Shown: positions 34,981-40,396 of the stretch, one piece after another
Numbering within the stretch: position 1 is the stretch's first letter
Layout of the letters: each line of letters begins with the position of its first letter
Program-made: the position numbers and the translations under genes
Assembly (NCBI GenBank): GCA_965228855.1
Contig: CBDDIJ010000002.1
Coordinates: forward strand, 160,001-224,000
Direction of reading: 5' to 3'
Length of the DNA: 64,000 nt
Source: Candidatus Obscuribacterales bacterium
GTDB taxonomy: Bacteria; Cyanobacteriota; Vampirovibrionia; Obscuribacterales; Obscuribacteraceae
Notes under the pieces: model-generated
What the model saw: the letters and a program-made list of their open reading frames with translations, nothing else
Databases searched by the model: none
Told to the model about the DNA's origin: nothing

Positions 34981-37041
34981 ATGTCTAGAAACACCCAGCG
35001 CCGCCCAGTGCGTCGCGCCAAATATGCCTTTTCGATGGTGAAACGCTGGCTGCCGATGCCCGATGGCACGAAGCTCGCCGCCACCATCTACCTGCCCACC
35101 GCCCACAAGGAGGGTGAGCGTTTTCCTGTACTCCTCGAACTCCTGCCCTACCGGAAAGACGACACGTTCTTCCTGATGGACTACCCGACCTATTCGTACT
35201 TCGCCAGACACGGCTACATGACCGTGAAGGTGGACATTCGAGGCACGGGTGCATCGCAAGGCGTGACGCCGCCCCGCGAATACTCGGACATCGAGCTCGA
35301 CGACGCCGTCGAAATCATTCGGCAGCTCGCCGACATGCCCGAAGCCAACGGCAACGTCGCGATGTGGGGCATCTCCTGGAGCGGTTTCAACTCCATTCAG
35401 GTTGCGATGCGTCGACCGCCTCAACTGAAGGCGATCATCGCGATGCACGCATCCGACGACCTGTACCACGACGACATCCACTACGTGGACGGTGTGCTGC
35501 ACCTCGACCCGTACCACCTGTTCATCAACCACGAACTCGGTCTGCCGCGCACCCCGCACTACAAGCTCGATGAGGACTACTTCCTCAACCGCTTCGACCA
35601 GACGCCCTGGCTGCTCACTTACCTGTCACAGCAGGAGGACGGCGACTTCTGGCGTCGCAAGTCGTTGCGCTTCCAGGGCTACGACAAAATCAACATCCCG
35701 GTTTATCTGATCGGCGGTCTCAACGACGGCTACCGGGACACGGTGATTCGCATGCTGGAAAACCTTTCCGGTCCTGTGCGCGCGGAAATCGGTCCCTGGG
35801 GTCATTCGTCGCCCGACGACGGCGTTCCCGGTCCGAACTTCGAATGGCAGGATGAAGCCATGGAATGGCTTTCGCCGTGGCTCGCGCCTGAGCGGTCCAT
35901 CGCTGAAGCCAGAAATCGCGGTTCGTCGAGGTCTGCGAACAAGCGCAGGCTGATGACTTTCGTGCGCGACGGTCATGAACCGGATCTCGACCAGACCGTT
36001 TCGCCCGGCACCTGGCGCGTGTTTGATTGGCCGGCAGCTGGTTCCAGCAAGCTGAAACTGTTTCTCGCCCCAGGCGGGAAGCTGGTCAATCGCTTCTTGA
36101 ACCATCAGGGACGAAACAGACTCGCATCCATCGACACCCATACCGCCACCGCCAGCAGTGGCACCGCCGCTGGTTGGTGGTGGGGCGAAACGACAGCGGA
36201 CATGCGCAACGACGACAGCGAATCACTCGTCTACGACAAGCTCGTGGATAAACCGATTCAAATCGTCGGTCTCCCGGAAGTGGGTCTGCGCGTTTCCAGT
36301 AAGAACGTCCGCGCCAACTGGTCGCTGCGTTTGGAAGATGTTTCGCCCACGGGAAAGGTGACGCTGGTGACAGGCGCACTGATCAACGGAGCGCATCTTA
36401 TCGAGCGACTTGGCGCGAGCGAACTCGAGCCGGGTAAAGTCTACGACCTGAGTACGAAGCTCCACTTCACCACGTGGACGTTCCAGAAGGGACATCGAAT
36501 CCGTCTGGCAGTTTCCAACGCTCAGTTCCCCATGGCGTGGCCGTCGGCAGACGTGGTTGAAACCTCCGTTCACACCGGGGGCGCAGCATCGACACTGACA
36601 CTACCGACGGTGCCCTTCGGTAGTGGTTCGCAACCCACGCTGCCGCGCGTGGCGCGCAAACGCTACAGCCCGTATGGAGAGGATGTGTGGTTGGAAGATG
36701 GAAAACCTGACAGTAAACGAGAGGTGATCCGTCGCGCAGACGGCAGCCTCTCTTTCTGCCTGGCAAGCCGTTCTGTCTATGATATTAAACGCCGTCGCTT
36801 CATTGTCGAAGGCAGCAACATCTGGACGACCAACGACAAAACTCCTGCAAAGTCGATGTACGAGGGCGAGATGCAAACCAGCATCATCACGGCTGCCCGC
36901 AAAATCGTGCTTAAGACGAACATAAAAGTAGAGTCGGACGAGAAAAACTTCACCGTCACAGTCACCCGCGAACTGCGCTGCAACGCCCGCAAAGTCCGCG
37001 CAAAAACCTGGACAAAAACAATCCCCCGCCGCCTCCACTAG
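34981..37041 (+). CDS. CocE/NonD family hydrolase (peptidase S15)
   Basis: MPDGTKLAA, PYRK, DIRGTGASQG, nucleophile GISWSG and IGPWGH; PepX-like C-domain (GHRIRLAVS..FP). Confidence 0.92.
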   Translation: MSRNTQRRPVRRAKYAFSMVKRWLPMPDGTKLAATIYLPTAHKEGERFPVLLELLPYRKDDTFFLMDYPTYSYFARHGYMTVKVDIRGTGASQGVTPPREYSDIELDDAVEIIRQLADMPEANGNVAMWGISWSGFNSIQVAMRRPPQLKAIIAMHASDDLYHDDIHYVDGVLHLDPYHLFINHELGLPRTPHYKLDEDYFLNRFDQTPWLLTYLSQQEDGDFWRRKSLRFQGYDKINIPVYLIGGLNDGYRDTVIRMLENLSGPVRAEIGPWGHSSPDDGVPGPNFEWQDEAMEWLSPWLAPERSIAEARNRGSSRSANKRRLMTFVRDGHEPDLDQTVSPGTWRVFDWPAAGSSKLKLFLAPGGKLVNRFLNHQGRNRLASIDTHTATASSGTAAGWWWGETTADMRNDDSESLVYDKLVDKPIQIVGLPEVGLRVSSKNVRANWSLRLEDVSPTGKVTLVTGALINGAHLIERLGASELEPGKVYDLSTKLHFTTWTFQKGHRIRLAVSNAQFPMAWPSADVVETSVHTGGAASTLTLPTVPFGSGSQPTLPRVARKRYSPYGEDVWLEDGKPDSKREVIRRADGSLSFCLASRSVYDIKRRRFIVEGSNIWTTNDKTPAKSMYEGEMQTSIITAARKIVLKTNIKVESDEKNFTVTVTRELRCNARKVRAKTWTKTIPRRLH

Positions 37042-37220
37042 CTTCCCGCCAGTCGGTCCCTCCCCGGGACCCTCTGGTCTCCCGAATTTGCCTACTATAT
37101 GTTTACGTATCTCCGTAAGCCCGAGAATCGTTACGGTGTCGGTGTTCAGAGTCCTTCAAAACTTAAAAGAACACGAAAATTCCCAGACTTGGCTACGTGG
37201 CTATGAGATAGTGTGTTCGC

Positions 37221-37226
37221 TGTCAA
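37221..37226 (-). promoter_or_regulatory. -35 box (TTGACA) of the circle-junction promoter; partner -10 TACGTT at 38468-38463
   Basis: Joining the IS ends gives TTGACA-gcgaacacactatcttg(17 bp)-TACGTT pointing into the bridge RNA. Confidence 0.8.
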
Positions 37227-38188
37227 CAATGAACGCTTAGATGATTGGGATTAAATGGTGTCTTTGTCCTGTAGATCGCCATCATGATGCGAAGTAGCTT
37301 GCGCATGGCGGCGCACAAGATGACTTTCCTTGGTTTGCACTTCTCTGCCAACTTTGTCGCGAATTTTTGAATGGCAGGGTTTGATCGAACTGCGCTCAGA
37401 GACGCCATGTAGAAAACTTTCCGGAGGCGCTTGCAGCCTTTCTTAGACATCTTCGGACGCCCTCGAACAGAAGTTCCAGACTCGCGCAATTCCGGAGTCA
37501 AGCCGCAGTAGCTCTCGACTTCTCTCAACGACTCGAAGGAATCCAAGCCGGAAATTTCCGTGAGAAACGTGAGTGCCGAGATCAAACCGACTCCAGGGAT
37601 GGTTTGCAGTAAGGCGAGATCGTTCTGAAATTGCGGTTCGGACTTGATCAAGAGGTCTCGAGCCTGTTCCAGCAGCAAAATCTCATTGTTGATGAATTCG
37701 ATTTGCCGCTGAAGCGAGATACTCACAGGTTCGTCGAGCCGACCGGACTCGGTACGATTCACGGTTCTGGTTCGGTCGGTTTTGAGCGCATCAATGTGAC
37801 GCTCAATGTTGCGAATCTTCCGGACCACGTCCGGGAGGGGCGTCCAGGTCTTCGGTTGAATCAGTTTGCAAAACTGTGCGATTACCTCGGCATCAATTGC
37901 GTCCGTCTTTGAACGCTTCAACAGGCTTTTGCCAAAGTTTTTGATCTGAACAGGATTGACGACGCTGACGGCAAAACCTTTGTCGCAGAAGTATTCTGCG
38001 AGTGGCTCCCAGAGCTTTCCAGTGGCCTCCATGCAAATTTGTACTTCGCTTTCGGTGTGCTGATTCAGCCACTTCTCAATTCGCCGAAATCCGCTGTCAG
38101 AGTTGTCAGCGTGCAACTTCCGCCCTCGTTCCGAGAGCAGATAGCAATCCACAGTCTCTTTAGAGATGTCTATCCCAAGTGATATCAC
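37223..38188 (-). CDS. IS110 family recombinase/transposase (DEDD RuvC-like + Tnp domain)
   Basis: GIDISK, CMEATG and SKTDAIDA (DEDD); TIPGVG; catalytic-Ser motif RESGTSV; SKKG..RLRK and AAMRKL. GGAGG RBS before GTG. Confidence 0.96.
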   Translation of the reverse strand: MISLGIDISKETVDCYLLSERGRKLHADNSDSGFRRIEKWLNQHTESEVQICMEATGKLWEPLAEYFCDKGFAVSVVNPVQIKNFGKSLLKRSKTDAIDAEVIAQFCKLIQPKTWTPLPDVVRKIRNIERHIDALKTDRTRTVNRTESGRLDEPVSISLQRQIEFINNEILLLEQARDLLIKSEPQFQNDLALLQTIPGVGLISALTFLTEISGLDSFESLREVESYCGLTPELRESGTSVRGRPKMSKKGCKRLRKVFYMASLSAVRSNPAIQKFATKLAEKCKPRKVILCAAMRKLLRIMMAIYRTKTPFNPNHLSVHC

Positions 38189-38214
38189 GATGCGCCTCCA
38201 TTTAGACTTGCCAA

Positions 38215-38456
38215 CCTACACAGGACGCGGATAGAATCTTGTCAGGGCGAGCCTTGTACGCATGCTAAATCGTTCTAGGATTTGCATCTGATAGTGTTCA
38301 GCCTCAGAGGACAAGACAGAAACGGAAGTCCAAACCTCATAGCCTGACTTCGCGGTCATACGCATTTTCCTGGTTTCTTCCGTTTCTCTATCCTCGCGTC
38401 CTCGGATAGCCTTGCCGACAGCAGGACCTGGTGTCAATTGATTGGGTCTGCTGTCA
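38215..38456 (-). ncRNA. Bridge RNA of the IS110 element (ends approximate)
   Basis: 5' hairpin. Target loop inside stem AGAAACGGAAG/CTTCCGTTTCT with guides AAAATGCGT (38368-38360) and GGCTATGA (38344-38337). Donor loop inside stem TCTTGTC/GACAAGA with guides ACACTATC (38297-38290) and CGTACAAG (38260-38253). Confidence 0.88.
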
Positions 38457-38617
38457 ATCTCTAACGTACAACGCAATTTCGAAATTCCGTCATCGAGGGA
38501 TAGCCAAGAACCCACCTCTCGGATCGAATCCGTCTATCAGGTTCCGGCTTCGCGAAATTCCATAATGGCGAAGACTCTGACCAAGTTCAATTGCTACGCA
38601 ACATCCAACCCGCGATC

Positions 38618-40396
38618 TCACTTCGGGATCGAAAACCAAAACGTACTGCCCTTGCCGACTTCGCTTTCGACACCAATTGCGCCACCATGCTGTTCGACAA
38701 TCGCTTTACTAATCGCCAGTCCCAATCCAGTTCCGCTGCGGTTTTCCTCGCCCTCCGGCGCCTGCTTGAACCTGTCAAAAATAGTGCGGAGATACTCCGC
38801 CGCAATTCCACAACCCTCATCAGCGATCCTGAGAGAAACCGCCTCACCAAGCTCCTCTACAGAAACTCTCACGGTGCCGCCATCAGGAGAAAACTTGACC
38901 GCGTTTGAAACCAGATTTACCAGAACCTGAACAACCCGGTCTCCATCTACATTTAGAACCAGTGGTGTCGTCGGCGCCACCACCTTAACGTTCTTCTCGG
39001 CTGCCATCGCAGAGCACGCACCAACCGTCTGATCGAGCAGGTGCTGAACGTTTTGCTCCGACCTCCGCAACTTCATATGTCCAGATTCCAATCGATCTAT
39101 ATCCAGCAAATCGCAAATCAGCTTGACTAAGCGATCGATGCTTTTGCCCATCTGCGACAATCGTTCCCGACCCGACTGATTCAACTCGCCGTAGATTCCA
39201 TCCTCGAGAAGCTCCAGATAGTTCTGCACCGACGTGAGCGGTGTCCGCAAATCATGGCTCACCATTGAAACAAAGTCTTGCTTCATCCGCTCCAACTGCT
39301 TGCGATCGGTAATATTGTGCGCGACGCAAAAGTACGATCCATCAGTCTCTGACCAGGTTACCGACCAGAGCGTATCAACCACAGTGCCGTCCTCACGCAG
39401 CATCCTGTTCTCAAAGGACTTACTAGTCCTTTCAGAACGCGCCTGTTCAAGCTCCTTAACAGTAGCTTCACGCTCGTCAGCGACGATGTACTTAACGTAA
39501 TGCGCCCCCAGTAAGTCATCCGCATCCCTTCCGAGAAGCTCTGCCGAAGCCGGATTCACACGTTCCAGGACGCCTGACTTACTGATTGAAAAGATCATAT
39601 CCGCAGTATTGTCCACGACCGCGCGCTCGCGCATCGAAGCCAGCGTCAGCGCTTCAGCCATCTCCCTGAATGTGTGGTCGAGATGCGCAAGCTCATCATT
39701 ACCTTTAATTGGAGGACTGAGCGGCAAACCACGAGCAAGCCTAACGGTGTTATCCATGAGAACTGAGAGCCTTCCGGTCAATTCGCGAATGACTACGACA
39801 ACAACGACAAATGCGATCACCGTATTCAATACCACACCAATGAACAACCAGCTTTGAATTCGCTTTCGCTGCTCCGTCTGAACCTTCGGATAGAGCTCCT
39901 CCGCCTTGCGTTCCTCTTCTAGAATTTTGTCGAGCTCTTTGGTTAGATTTCCGAAAATTTGCTGCGCCCTGTCCTTGGTCGCGAGGATGCCTTCGTCGCG
40001 TAAAATCCGCTTCAACACTCGAAGTTGATCGGCGCCGTCGCGCATCAATTTCTGCGCACGCTCAAAGTGCTCACGAGCAGCGGGATAATCAGCCAGCGCT
40101 TTGGTTAATATGCGCTCCTCTTTTTCAATTTTCTCGCGCGCCCTGGCATCGCGCTCCGCTCGTTTCTCCTTATCCGCAGCGATGGTGAAACCGGCACCAG
40201 CTGTGGCATTATCAAGAAGAATTCTATGGACTTCGTTGACGTGCGTGATAATCGAACGCGCAATGAATTCGTTCTGGCGCTCCCGCTCGGCTTCTGCAAG
40301 AAGATTGCTGAGAACCAACACAAAGCAAAATTCAAACACCAGTGGCAGTACCACTAGAATCAGCATCTTGTGAGAAAGCTTCAGACCTTTTGCCAT
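38618..40396 (-). CDS. Membrane sensor histidine kinase (periplasmic sensor, HAMP, PAS, HisKA, HATPase)
   Basis: Two TMs; DELAHLD..F..MA (HAMP); PAS ending HNITDRK; SHDLRTPL, NLVSNAVKF, DEGCGI and GTGLGLAI. Confidence 0.95.
   Translation of the reverse strand: MAKGLKLSHKMLILVVLPLVFEFCFVLVLSNLLAEAERERQNEFIARSIITHVNEVHRILLDNATAGAGFTIAADKEKRAERDARAREKIEKEERILTKALADYPAAREHFERAQKLMRDGADQLRVLKRILRDEGILATKDRAQQIFGNLTKELDKILEEERKAEELYPKVQTEQRKRIQSWLFIGVVLNTVIAFVVVVVVIRELTGRLSVLMDNTVRLARGLPLSPPIKGNDELAHLDHTFREMAEALTLASMRERAVVDNTADMIFSISKSGVLERVNPASAELLGRDADDLLGAHYVKYIVADEREATVKELEQARSERTSKSFENRMLREDGTVVDTLWSVTWSETDGSYFCVAHNITDRKQLERMKQDFVSMVSHDLRTPLTSVQNYLELLEDGIYGELNQSGRERLSQMGKSIDRLVKLICDLLDIDRLESGHMKLRRSEQNVQHLLDQTVGACSAMAAEKNVKVVAPTTPLVLNVDGDRVVQVLVNLVSNAVKFSPDGGTVRVSVEELGEAVSLRIADEGCGIAAEYLRTIFDRFKQAPEGEENRSGTGLGLAISKAIVEQHGGAIGVESEVGKGSTFWFSIPK

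What the first reader, a model, noticed from the sequence alone, without database searches (positions are those of the whole stretch)
38215..38456. Fully readable bridge RNA: an RNA-guided IS110 recombinase programmed against a host repeat
Seen: the non-coding left end folds into a 5' hairpin and two internal loops. Loop 1 carries AAAATGCGT, an 8/9 match to the target's left arm plus core (AAATTGCGT), and GGCTATG, the exact reverse complement of the right target arm CATAGCC; a TGAC/GTCA hairpin separates them. Loop 2 carries ACACTATC, identical to the element's own right end, and CGTACAAG, the reverse complement of core plus left end (CTTGTACG); an ATGC-AAATC/GATTT-GCAT hairpin separates them. 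Known: this is the architecture of the IS621 bridge RNA (target- and donor-binding loops). Inference: this is an intact, probably active programmable recombinase with its own target and donor specificity.
Basis: partly seen in the sequence, partly recalled or inferred. Interest (0 to 1): 0.93.

Follow-up and report, generated by a model that had tools for sequence, protein, structure and literature searches.

The report
IS110 jumping gene with bridge RNA
This is an intact, recently mobile IS110-family insertion sequence whose left end encodes a two-loop "bridge" guide RNA that spells out both a repeated host sequence and the element's own joined ends; the mechanism has been known since 2024, so this is a clean new example rather than a new kind of system.

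Summary
A 1265-bp IS110-group element lies on the minus strand at 37206-38470. It has a 321-aa DEDD/Ser recombinase homologous end to end to IS621 transposase (PDB 8wt6, E 4.6e-50). Its left end folds into a 5' hairpin plus two internal-loop arms. Shuffles put the chance of this at about 3e-10.

Fifteen related elements keep the stems: 25 of 65 pairs show compensatory change, and 0 of 500 shuffles do as well. Their guides change together with their own flanks (80 of 98 positions; 0 of 20000 permutations).

The target is a palindromic host repeat of about 70 nt (177 nhmmer hits). The site is empty in a related strain, and a sister genome carries a copy in a site that is empty here.

Near-identical copies carry three variants of the left target guide.

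No transcript or circle junction was seen. This is a new member of a known kind. The scan has noted similar bridge RNAs in other genomes.

The parts
37206..38470 (-). Whole insertion sequence ('IS-1'), 1265 bp including the 3' CT core. It has no terminal inverted repeats.
   Evidence: The alignment of four own-genome copies with their flanks fixes both ends. A DNA contig of run X9 joins 37205 to 38471 and skips exactly 1265 nt. A sister-genome copy sits in a site that is empty in this genome.
38471..38507 (-). Left half of the interrupted host repeat (REP-like palindrome). Its last 9 nt, AAATTGC+GT (38479-38471), are the left target arm plus the target core GT.
37189..37205 (-). Right half of the interrupted host repeat. 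CATAGCC (37205-37199) is the right target arm.
38463..38468 (-). -10-like hexamer TACGTT in the left end. It forms a promoter only when joined to the right end.
   Evidence: Read. TTGACA (37226-37221) is followed by 13 nt, then CT, then TG, which gives a 17-nt spacer. The linear locus has no promoter-like site on this strand.
38221..38456 (-). Predicted bridge RNA, about 236 nt. The 5' end is inferred from the junction promoter and the 3' end from the end of the basal helix.
   Evidence: Model R1 scores 230.1 bits on this copy.
38417..38455 (-). 5' stem-loop (GACAGCAGACC / GGTCCTGCTGTC).
   Evidence: The 13 relatives with a complete left end each fold into one hairpin that starts near UUGAC, with different stem sequences. 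L048 folds as two small hairpins and the 5'-truncated L049 as a short one.
38318..38387 (-). Target-binding arm. Lower stem: 38387-38377 with 38328-38318. Upper stem: CCAGG/TTTGG. Apical hairpin: 38358-38345.
   Evidence: In one search, helix 3 has 7 of 11 pairs with compensatory change and 90.7% of cells paired. Helix 5 has 3 of 4 pairs with compensatory change.
38360..38368 (-). Left target guide (LTG) AAAATGC+GU.
   Evidence: The other own copies read AAAAAGCGT and the sister genome reads AAATTGCGT.
38334..38344 (-). Right target guide GGCUAUG, then AG (pairs with the core), then the handshake dinucleotide GU (38335-38334).
   Evidence: The logic is from PMC11208158.
38236..38317 (-). Donor-binding arm. 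Stem GTCTTGTC/GACAAGAT, inner GGC/GCC, apical hairpin 38287-38262.
   Evidence: In one search, helix 6 has 95% of cells paired and is mostly invariant. Helix 8 has 6 of 9 pairs with compensatory change.
38289..38298 (-). Left donor guide AACACUAUC(A).
38251..38260 (-). Right donor guide CGUACA, then AG (pairs with the core), then the handshake dinucleotide GC (38252-38251).
38222..38402 (-). Basal helix predicted to close both arms (38402-38388 with 38234-38222).
   Evidence: In one search, helix 2 has 69.8% of cells paired. Its inner 6 bp are largely conserved, and the outer part holds only in the closest relatives.
37223..38188 (-). Recombinase gene (321 aa, GTG start, stop codon included). 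A GGAGG ribosome-binding site lies at 38199-38195.
37221..37226 (-). -35 hexamer TTGACA in the right end. It overlaps the stop codon.
   Evidence: Read. A TTGAC lies 12-13 nt before the ACACTATC of the right end in all 12 elements whose right end was found.
37206..37214 (-). Left donor arm ACACTAT (37214-37208) plus the donor core CT (37207-37206).

Best explanation
This is an intact IS110-group insertion sequence of 1265 bp in a bacterium of the same genus as a MAG labelled Candidatus Obscuribacterales. It moves by bridge-RNA-guided recombination of the IS621 type.

Shown from sequence:
- The element ends are defined to the base.
- The recombinase keeps the residues that align with IS621 D11, E60, D102, D105 and S241. 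Here they are D7, E54, D96, D99 and S237.
- The left end folds into a 5' hairpin plus a target-binding arm and a donor-binding arm.
- The target arm reads AAAATGC-GU and GGCUAUG-AG. It matches a REP-like host palindrome at ...AAAWWGC-GT|CATAGCC.
- The donor arm reads AACACUAUC and CGUACA-AG. It matches the joined right and left ends, ACACTAT-CT-TGTACG.

Inferred by analogy with IS621:
- A rare excision joins the right end to the left end. This builds a TTGACA-17-TACGTT promoter that drives the bridge RNA and the recombinase.
- A recombinase tetramer with the RNA pairs the circle junction with a repeat unit.
- It cuts the top strands after the core T and exchanges them.
- The handshake dinucleotides then pair with the incoming strands. 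GU follows the RTG and fits donor A6-T7. GC follows the RDG and fits target G6-C7. This favours insertion.

The product keeps the target's GT at the left junction and the donor's CT at the right junction.
For: Protein: Pfam PF01548 (E 3.6e-27) and PF02371 (E 1.5e-23). The PDB search gives IS621 transposase 8wt6 at E 4.6e-50 over residues 4-315 and ISCro4 at 8.3e-47. The alignment shows D, E, D, D and S conserved at the catalytic columns. The residue list comes from PMC11208158.

Ends: fixed by the four own copies, by the empty-site contig that skips 1265 nt, and by the occupied/empty pair with the sister genome.

Fold: z -3.2.

Covariation on 15 elements: 79.2% of cells paired, 25 of 65 pairs with a change on both sides, 0 of 500 shuffles as high, and a maximum at slide 0.

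Guides against their own flanks:
- LTG against left flank: 80 of 98 non-core positions match, against a cross mean of 2.3 of 7. 0 of 20000 permutations reach this.
- With one representative for each of the 11 distinct LTGs: 65 of 77, again 0 of 20000.
- RTG against right flank: 39 of 50, 0 of 20000.

Sister element IS-2 in the same genome keeps the stems and the donor loop. It has a different target loop that matches its own different flanks.

Host repeat: 177 nhmmer hits. Nearly all sites matching the guides at 14 or more of 16 positions are repeat units.

RNA model: a covariance model built from this clade finds all 7 own-genome copies (222.8-230.4 bits). It also hits just upstream of the recombinase gene in two proteobacterial plasmid IS110 elements with about 38% protein identity (E 7.4e-6 and 1.1e-3).

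Recent mobility: the four copies differ at 3 sites in all and encode identical proteins.
Against: - No transcript of the RNA region was seen. The two RNA-library contigs cover only 37251-37468, inside the recombinase gene, and such libraries can hold DNA.
- No circle-junction joint was seen in the four runs laid.
- Rfam 15 gave no match better than E 6.5, so no curated model could be applied.
- The integrated locus has no promoter-like site on the element's strand.
- The window copy's LTG mismatches its own flank at one position.
- No unoccupied site in this genome matches any LTG variant plus the right arm at 16 of 16. The best is 15 of 16.
- The LDG reads A opposite the core T.
- The unconstrained MFE pairs a few guide bases with each other.
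- The covariation controls can be exceeded by related sequences without structure (caveat stated).
Confidence: 0.88

Rival explanations
1. The element is a real bridge-RNA IS110, but the window copy itself is silent or crippled and only its sisters move.
For: It carries a private LTG base (T at element position 107) and a private synonymous change (position 690) compared with the three other own copies. The linear locus has no promoter-like site on its strand. No RNA or circle evidence was found.
Against: Its protein is identical to that of the other copies, and all stems and the other three guides are unchanged. The same LTG variant stands on a different backbone in run X9, so it is a circulating variant and not a lesion. 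Low expression from the integrated state is normal for IS621 (PMC13626964, passages read).
Confidence: 0.07
2. The matches are DNA-level subterminal repeats bound by the protein, and the fold is only a 5' leader of the recombinase mRNA. The RNA does not guide.
For: No transcript ends were mapped. The structured region ends about 20 nt before the ribosome-binding site.
Against: Target-loop sequences match host flanks that are not part of the element, and they change with those flanks across relatives. The stems show compensatory changes. The protein is a full-length homologue of IS621, for which RNA guidance was shown by experiment and by structure.
Confidence: 0.03
3. The four complementarities are a chance coincidence.
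For: None beyond the short length of each match.
Against: In 20000 shuffles all four never occurred together, and the product of the single frequencies is 2.9e-10. The same layout recurs in 14 other elements.
Confidence: 0.003

Closest known systems
IS621 of Escherichia coli: bridge RNA plus recombinase (Durrant et al. 2024, PMC11208160, passages read; Hiraizumi et al. 2024, PMC11208158, passages and section 7 read; PDB 8wt6)
   Same: - Recombinase homologous over its full length, with all catalytic residues.
- ncRNA in the left end, with a 5' stem-loop, a target-binding loop and a donor-binding loop.
- 9-nt LTG (7 nt plus core); RTG, LDG and RDG in the same order and on the same strands.
- T at the second core position.
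- Handshake dinucleotides that fit donor A6-T7 and target G6-C7, the same dinucleotides as in IS621.
- A promoter formed at the RE-LE junction.
- A repeated extragenic palindrome as the natural target.
   Different: - The best PDB match is distant, and the best plasmid relatives are about 38% identical.
- The RNA is about 236 nt against 177 nt.
- The two arms abut without the 11-nt linker (IS621 TBL is nt 34-98 and DBL nt 110-177), and they are predicted to be closed by a basal helix.
- The RTG pairs with 7 nt plus the core, not 4.
- The RDG is contiguous here. The discontiguous form is seen in sister IS-2.
- The target core is GT while the donor core is CT.
- The LDG does not pair with the core T.
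ISCro4 / IS622 bridge recombinase (PDB 9t56; preprint 10.1101/2025.05.14.653916, search listing only)
   Same: Recombinase homologue at E 8.3e-47 over residues 4-315.
   Different: Its RNA was not compared here.
ISPpu9 and ISPpu10 of Pseudomonas putida: REP-targeting IS110 elements (PMC12288879, search listing only; preprint 10.64898/2026.03.19.712850, abstract and outline read)
   Same: Multi-copy IS110 elements that insert into one conserved palindromic intergenic repeat.
   Different: For ISPpu10, a target stem-loop 5' of the site is reported as a second specificity determinant. Whether the palindrome here plays that role was not tested.
IS1111-group elements with seekRNA
   Same: Same recombinase superfamily and a two-loop guide RNA.
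   Different: Their RNA lies downstream of the recombinase gene, in the right end. Here it lies upstream, in the left end, which is the IS110-group layout.
CazIS110-1 of Caloranaerobacter azorensis (preprint 10.1101/2025.10.25.684509, abstract and passages read)
   Same: A bridge-RNA IS110. Its reported top-strand-only insertion predicts exactly the junction cores seen here: target core on the left, donor core on the right.
   Different: No sequence comparison was made. That work is biochemical and does not mention cores (0 occurrences of 'core').

Membership tests
IS110-family bridge recombinase (IS110 group) | Recombinase with an N-terminal RuvC-like DEDD domain and a C-terminal Tnp domain carrying the catalytic serine | tested here: met
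   PF01548 covers residues 4-147 and PF02371 covers 192-276. D7, E54, D96, D99 and S237 align with IS621 D11, E60, D102, D105 and S241. The chain numbering is offset by +2, which was checked against T12, A61, G63 and G242 as named in the paper.
IS110-family bridge recombinase (IS110 group) | Structured ncRNA in the non-coding left end, upstream of the recombinase gene | tested here: met
   The fold z-score is -3.2. Covariation on 15 sequences is reached by 0 of 500 shuffles. The region is 38456-38221 and the gene starts at 38188.
IS621-type bridge RNA | Target-binding internal loop: the LTG has the same sense as the left target plus core, and the RTG is complementary to the core plus right target | tested here: met
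   8 of 9 and 9 of 9 positions in the window copy. Co-variation with flanks across relatives is reached by 0 of 20000 permutations for each guide.
IS621-type bridge RNA | Donor-binding internal loop: the LDG matches the right end and the RDG is complementary to the core plus left end | tested here: met
   LDG: the 7 nt of the right end plus C match and the core T does not. RDG: 8 of 8. The same LDG/right-end match is seen in more distant relatives with different sequences, namely L026, L022 and L023.
IS621-type bridge RNA | Core dinucleotide with T at the second position on both sides of the element | tested here: met
   GT on the left and CT on the right in 5 of 5 IS-1 insertions. The empty sites read GT.
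IS621-type bridge RNA | Handshake guides that pair with positions 6-7 of the non-cognate DNA | tested here: met
   The donor-arm GC is complementary to target G6-C7 in 4 of 5 insertion sites. The target-arm GU pairs with donor A6-T7 through U:A and a G.T wobble.
IS621-type bridge RNA | Sigma-70-type promoter formed only at the RE-LE junction | tested here: met
   TTGACA, a 17-nt spacer and TACGTT, read. The -35 motif is conserved in 12 of 12 right ends. This is a sequence match only; promoter activity was not tested.
IS621-type bridge RNA | The RNA is transcribed, and a circular intermediate exists | tested here: inconclusive
   The contigs of two RNA libraries cover only part of the recombinase gene, and no circle joint was found in 4 runs. 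Contigs cannot show absence.
IS621-type bridge RNA | Match to a curated covariance model | not testable with these tools
   The Rfam 15 scan gave only E 6.5 or worse to unrelated families. A home-made model (R1) hits two proteobacterial IS110 left ends at E 7.4e-6 and 1.1e-3, one of them beside a protein that matches IS621 at E 2.8e-68.
IS1111 group (seekRNA) | Guide RNA downstream of the recombinase gene, with subterminal inverted repeats | tested here: not met
   Only 16 nt lie between the stop codon and the donor core. The guide RNA is upstream.

The most novel reading that the evidence does not exclude
This clade may preserve two natural records of how bridge recombination works in the wild.

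(1) Junction cores. Eleven independent insertions have an LTG core that is not CU: five IS-1 sites with GT and six relatives with AT. In all eleven the left junction keeps the target's core and the right junction keeps the donor's CT. The opposite product, which a two-strand exchange across a 2-nt heteroduplex would be expected to give half the time, is never seen (2^-11 is about 5e-4). This is the footprint expected of top-strand-only transfer, as two 2025-2026 preprints propose from biochemistry.

(2) Fast-changing guide. Among near-identical copies, 2 of about 13 substitutions fall in the 9-nt left target guide (binomial about 0.004). They give three variants, AAAAA, AAAAT and AAATT, that track subfamilies of the host repeat. 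This would be natural retargeting caught in the act.
Probability: 0.4. Interest if true: 0.55.

Novelty: new member of a known kind. Interest (0 to 1): 0.33.

Why it matters
As a system it is ordinary. It adds a fully parsed bridge-RNA element from the Melainabacteria lineage (Candidatus Obscuribacterales), where one literature search ('Obscuribacter' with 'IS110') found no paper.

It has some practical value as a natural test set:
- Two sister elements share donor ends but carry different target loops aimed at two positions of one host repeat.
- Three natural one-base variants of the left target guide sit on an almost identical backbone.
- The target core (GT) differs from the donor core (CT).

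Together these could be used to test guide mismatch rules, cross-mobilisation, and the disputed strandedness of insertion, without designing artificial variants.

Tried and rejected
- Rfam 15 scan of 36900-38800 at E up to 10: only three chance-level matches to unrelated families.
- First MAFFT/RNAalifold attempt on 8 mixed relatives: the alignment was too poor for the 5' part. It was replaced by a 15-sequence alignment of closer relatives with a structure taken from the window fold. Because the structure came from one of the aligned sequences, the slide control leans towards it.
- A second small alignment had a wrong end coordinate for one locus and was not used.
- The genome contigs protein scan found only one relative, the sister genome.
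- Class-wide protein search: 13 of 201 genomes had a match at E 1e-30 or better, this genome included. Family-wide DNA search: 3 of 61 genomes.
- Sequencing runs: the RNA libraries X19 and X20 hold contigs only over 37251-37468, so there is no evidence for or against the bridge RNA transcript. No circle-junction joint was seen. A joint 38037 to 38223 in X1 (shorter side 30 nt, letters between not known) was not interpreted.
- Promoter and terminator scan of the linear locus: one promoter-like site, on the opposite strand, and no terminator-like site.
- My first script for right ends used too strict a pattern and found none. It was redone.
- My first chance test used the wrong 8-mer for the donor guide. 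It was redone.
- ORF 38216-38515 (99 aa, minus strand) overlaps the RNA region, but it starts in the host flank outside the element. I treat it as an artefact of ORF listing.
- Plasmid tblastn gave no close named relative; the best identity was about 38%.
- Earlier notes of this scan for this genome: none near this place.

Full report
**What is there**

The finding lies on the minus strand. A 321-aa ORF (38188-37223, GTG start, GGAGG 6 nt upstream) carries the two Pfam domains of IS110 transposases: PF01548 (E 3.6e-27) and PF02371 (E 1.5e-23). It aligns over residues 4-315 with the IS621 transposase of PDB 8wt6 (E 4.6e-50) and with ISCro4 (E 8.3e-47). D7, E54, D96, D99 and S237 stand at the columns of IS621's catalytic D11, E60, D102, D105 and S241. 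The residue list comes from PMC11208158. The +2 chain offset was checked against T12, A61, G63 and G242, which that paper names.

**Boundaries**

The genome holds four copies at 99% identity or more, and three identical copies of a sister element I call IS-2. Aligning the four copies with their flanks shows that identity starts at TGTACGTTAG (38470) and ends at ...AACACACTAT-CT (37206). The element is 1265 bp and has no terminal inverted repeats.

Two independent occupied/empty pairs confirm this to the base:
- A copy in a same-genus genome, whose record is titled 'MAG: Candidatus Obscuribacterales bacterium', sits between ...GAGCAATTGCGT and CATAGCCAGATAGACACGCGAGGG.... That site is uninterrupted in this genome.
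- A DNA contig from an activated-sludge run joins window 37205 to 38471 and skips exactly 1265 nt. This is the empty form of this very locus in a related strain.

The empty sites read ...GC-GT-CATAGCC. The occupied sites read ...GC-GT-[element]-CT-CATAGCC.

- LTG AAAATGCGT, 38368-38360
- RTG GGCTATG plus AG, 38344-38336
- LDG AACACTATC, 38298-38290
- RDG CGTACAAG, 38260-38253

The two separating hairpins are also present. The region folds with z -3.2 into a 5' hairpin, a target arm and a donor arm. Forcing the guides open costs 4.1 kcal/mol. In 20000 shuffles the four matches never occurred together. The product of their single frequencies is 2.9e-10.

**Comparative test**

I collected relatives from several searches: the class, the family and one metagenome pattern scan. 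Fifteen elements were aligned.

With the structure taken from the window fold, 79.2% of cells are paired and 25 of 65 pairs change on both sides. No shuffle of 500 does as well, and sliding the partner by 1-3 columns drops pairing to 35-51%. By helix:
- Target-arm stem: 7 of 11 pairs with compensatory change.
- Donor-arm hairpin: 6 of 9.
- Target-arm hairpin: 3 of 4.

The 5' hairpin is misaligned by MAFFT. Folded one by one, the 13 relatives with a complete left end each give one hairpin starting near UUGAC, with different stem sequences. L048 folds as two small hairpins and the 5'-truncated L049 as a short one. The structure came from one of the aligned sequences and the sequences are related, so these controls are supportive and not a proof.

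The guides change with their own DNA:
- LTG against left flank: 80 of 98 non-core positions match, against a cross-pair mean of 2.3 of 7. 0 of 20000 permutations reach this.
- With one representative per distinct LTG (11): 65 of 77, again 0 of 20000.
- RTG against right flank: 39 of 50, 0 of 20000. Four relatives match only 2-3 of 5 RTG positions.

The cleanest case is sister element IS-2 in this same genome. Its recombinase is only 52% identical, but its ends, its stems and almost the whole donor loop are the same. Its target loop reads ATTTTGT-CU and GGCGU-AG. Its three copies sit at ...TTTGT-CT|ACGCC... (two exact, one with 5 of 7).

A covariance model built from the alignment finds the seven own-genome copies. 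It also hits, at the expected place and strand, the left ends of two proteobacterial plasmid IS110 elements with about 38% protein identity (E 7.4e-6 and 1.1e-3). One of these encodes a protein that matches IS621 at E 2.8e-68. Rfam 15 has nothing that matches.

**The target**

The flanks are halves of an imperfect palindrome of about 70 nt: TTGKCTAYG-N5-ATGMCGGAATTT-CG-AAATYSCGTCAT-N5-CRTAGMCAA. A profile built from 25 seeds finds 177 copies at E 1e-3 or better. IS-1 inserts in the 3' half and IS-2 at the 5' edge.

Nearly all genome sites that match LTG plus right arm at 14 or more of 16 positions are such repeat units. None matches at 16 of 16. The best free sites for the window copy's guide are 15 of 16. 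In the window, the repeat lies between the convergent 3' ends of a histidine-kinase gene and an S15-peptidase gene.

**Fit to the published mechanism**

I read passages of PMC11208160; passages and section 7 of PMC11208158; and passages of PMC13626964. The LTG pairs with the bottom strand and the RTG with the top strand, and the donor guides do likewise. Top strands are cut after the core T. The two bases 3' of each right guide, the handshake guides, should pair with positions 6-7 of the other DNA.

Here GC follows the RDG and is complementary to target G6-C7 in 4 of 5 insertion sites. GU follows the RTG and pairs with donor A6-T7 through one Watson-Crick pair and one wobble. These are the same two dinucleotides as in IS621.

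A TTGACA lies 13 nt from the right end, and all 12 right ends recovered carry a TTGAC at that place. With the CT core and the first two bases of the left end it stands 17 nt from TACGTT. A promoter therefore exists only in the circle, as described for IS621. The linear locus shows no promoter-like site on this strand.

**Differences from IS621**

- The RNA is longer, about 236 nt against 177 nt.
- The arms abut without a linker and are predicted to be closed by a basal helix. Its inner 6 bp are conserved and the outer part is not.
- The RTG pairs with 7 nt plus the core.
- The LDG does not pair with the core T. Two relatives share this.
- The target core is GT, and the LTG reads GU. The donor core is CT, and the RTG and RDG read AG.

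**Activity**

The four own copies differ at three sites in all and encode the same protein. Insertion is polymorphic between strains. This argues for recent movement. No RNA or circle was seen. The RNA-library contigs cover only part of the recombinase gene, and contigs cannot show absence.

**Two side observations**

First, the left target guide varies among near-identical copies. Three own copies read AAAAAGCGT, the window copy reads AAAATGCGT and the sister genome reads AAATTGCGT. A metagenome copy with the sister-type backbone carries the window-type guide. The middle variant is therefore probably ancestral. By my count, two of about 13 substitutions fall in 9 of 1265 nt, a binomial probability of about 0.004. 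The T-rich variants sit in ...TTGC flanks and the A-rich variant in ...AAGC flanks, though one copy sits in a poor match (3 mismatches). The sample is small.

Second, the junction cores. In all 11 insertions that have both junctions and a non-CU LTG core, the left junction keeps the target core and the right junction keeps CT. All 12 right ends recovered are followed by CT; three loci did not reach a right end. A two-strand exchange over a 2-nt core would make a heteroduplex at position 8 and should give the reverse arrangement about half the time. Top-strand-only transfer predicts what is seen. Two preprints propose such transfer from biochemistry: 10.1101/2025.10.25.684509 (abstract and passages) and 10.64898/2026.08.31.748434 (abstract only). 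A bottom-strand cut one base further in, or biased repair, would also explain it.

**Verdict**

It is a new member of a known kind. The scan has noted similar elements in other genomes.

Noticed in passing
G000:C2 about 774.4-775.95 kb, 858.3-859.8 kb and 1120.5-1122.0 kb (loci L032-L034), minus strand: Sister element IS-2 is present in three identical copies. Its recombinase is 52% identical to IS-1, yet its ends and donor loop are the same. Its target loop is aimed at the 5' edge of the same host repeat (TTTGT-CT-ACGCC). The shared donor ends suggest the two elements could cross-mobilise.
   Followed up: partly
Whole genome G000; window examples at 38471-38507 and 37189-37205: The roughly 70-nt palindromic repeat family is very unevenly spread. 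Of 177 nhmmer hits, 146 are on contig C2 (2.59 Mb), 20 on C3 (3.76 Mb), 11 on C5 and none on the others. C2 also has a higher G+C content (0.529 against 0.504 and 0.507). The genome is rated 5.78% contaminated.
   Followed up: no
Left and right junctions of IS-1 (window 38472-38471 and 37207-37206) and of loci L036, L046, L048, L050, L052, L054: The left junction keeps the target's core (GT or AT, matching the LTG). The right junction always reads CT, in 11 of 11 insertions with a non-CU LTG core. This is the footprint expected of top-strand-only insertion.
   Followed up: partly
Window 38364-38365 (element positions 107 and 106): Copies that are otherwise 99.2-99.8% identical carry three variants of the left target guide. 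Two of about 13 substitutions fall in the 9-nt guide.
   Followed up: partly
G000:C5:860927-862245 (copy C): This copy has T to C at the last base of the right end, next to the core (ACACTAC-CT). That creates a mismatch to its own left donor guide. The IS621 paper reports a bias against C at this position.
   Followed up: no
L020/L030 (G157:C2:519169-520103): A close relative has a bridge-RNA region that scores 239 bits with model R1. Its recombinase reading frame appears as two abutting pieces (residues 2-142 and 143-312). It looks like a frameshifted copy with an intact RNA.
   Followed up: no
Window 38618-40396 (minus strand) and 34981-37041 (plus strand): The element sits between the convergent 3' ends of a PAS/HisKA/HATPase histidine kinase and an S15 X-Pro dipeptidyl-peptidase-like gene. 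The kinase gene lies upstream in the same orientation, and no terminator-like site was found, so read-through could supply low-level RNA.
   Followed up: no
Window 38037-38223, run X1: One contig of the best-holding run joins 38037 to 38223 and skips 185 nt. The shorter side is 30 nt, and the letters between the two sides are not known. It may be an assembly artefact among the multiple copies.
   Followed up: no
Runs X6-X16: At least half of the sampled words of the element stand in wastewater and activated-sludge metagenomes from several studies. Only X9 of these was laid on the window.
   Followed up: partly
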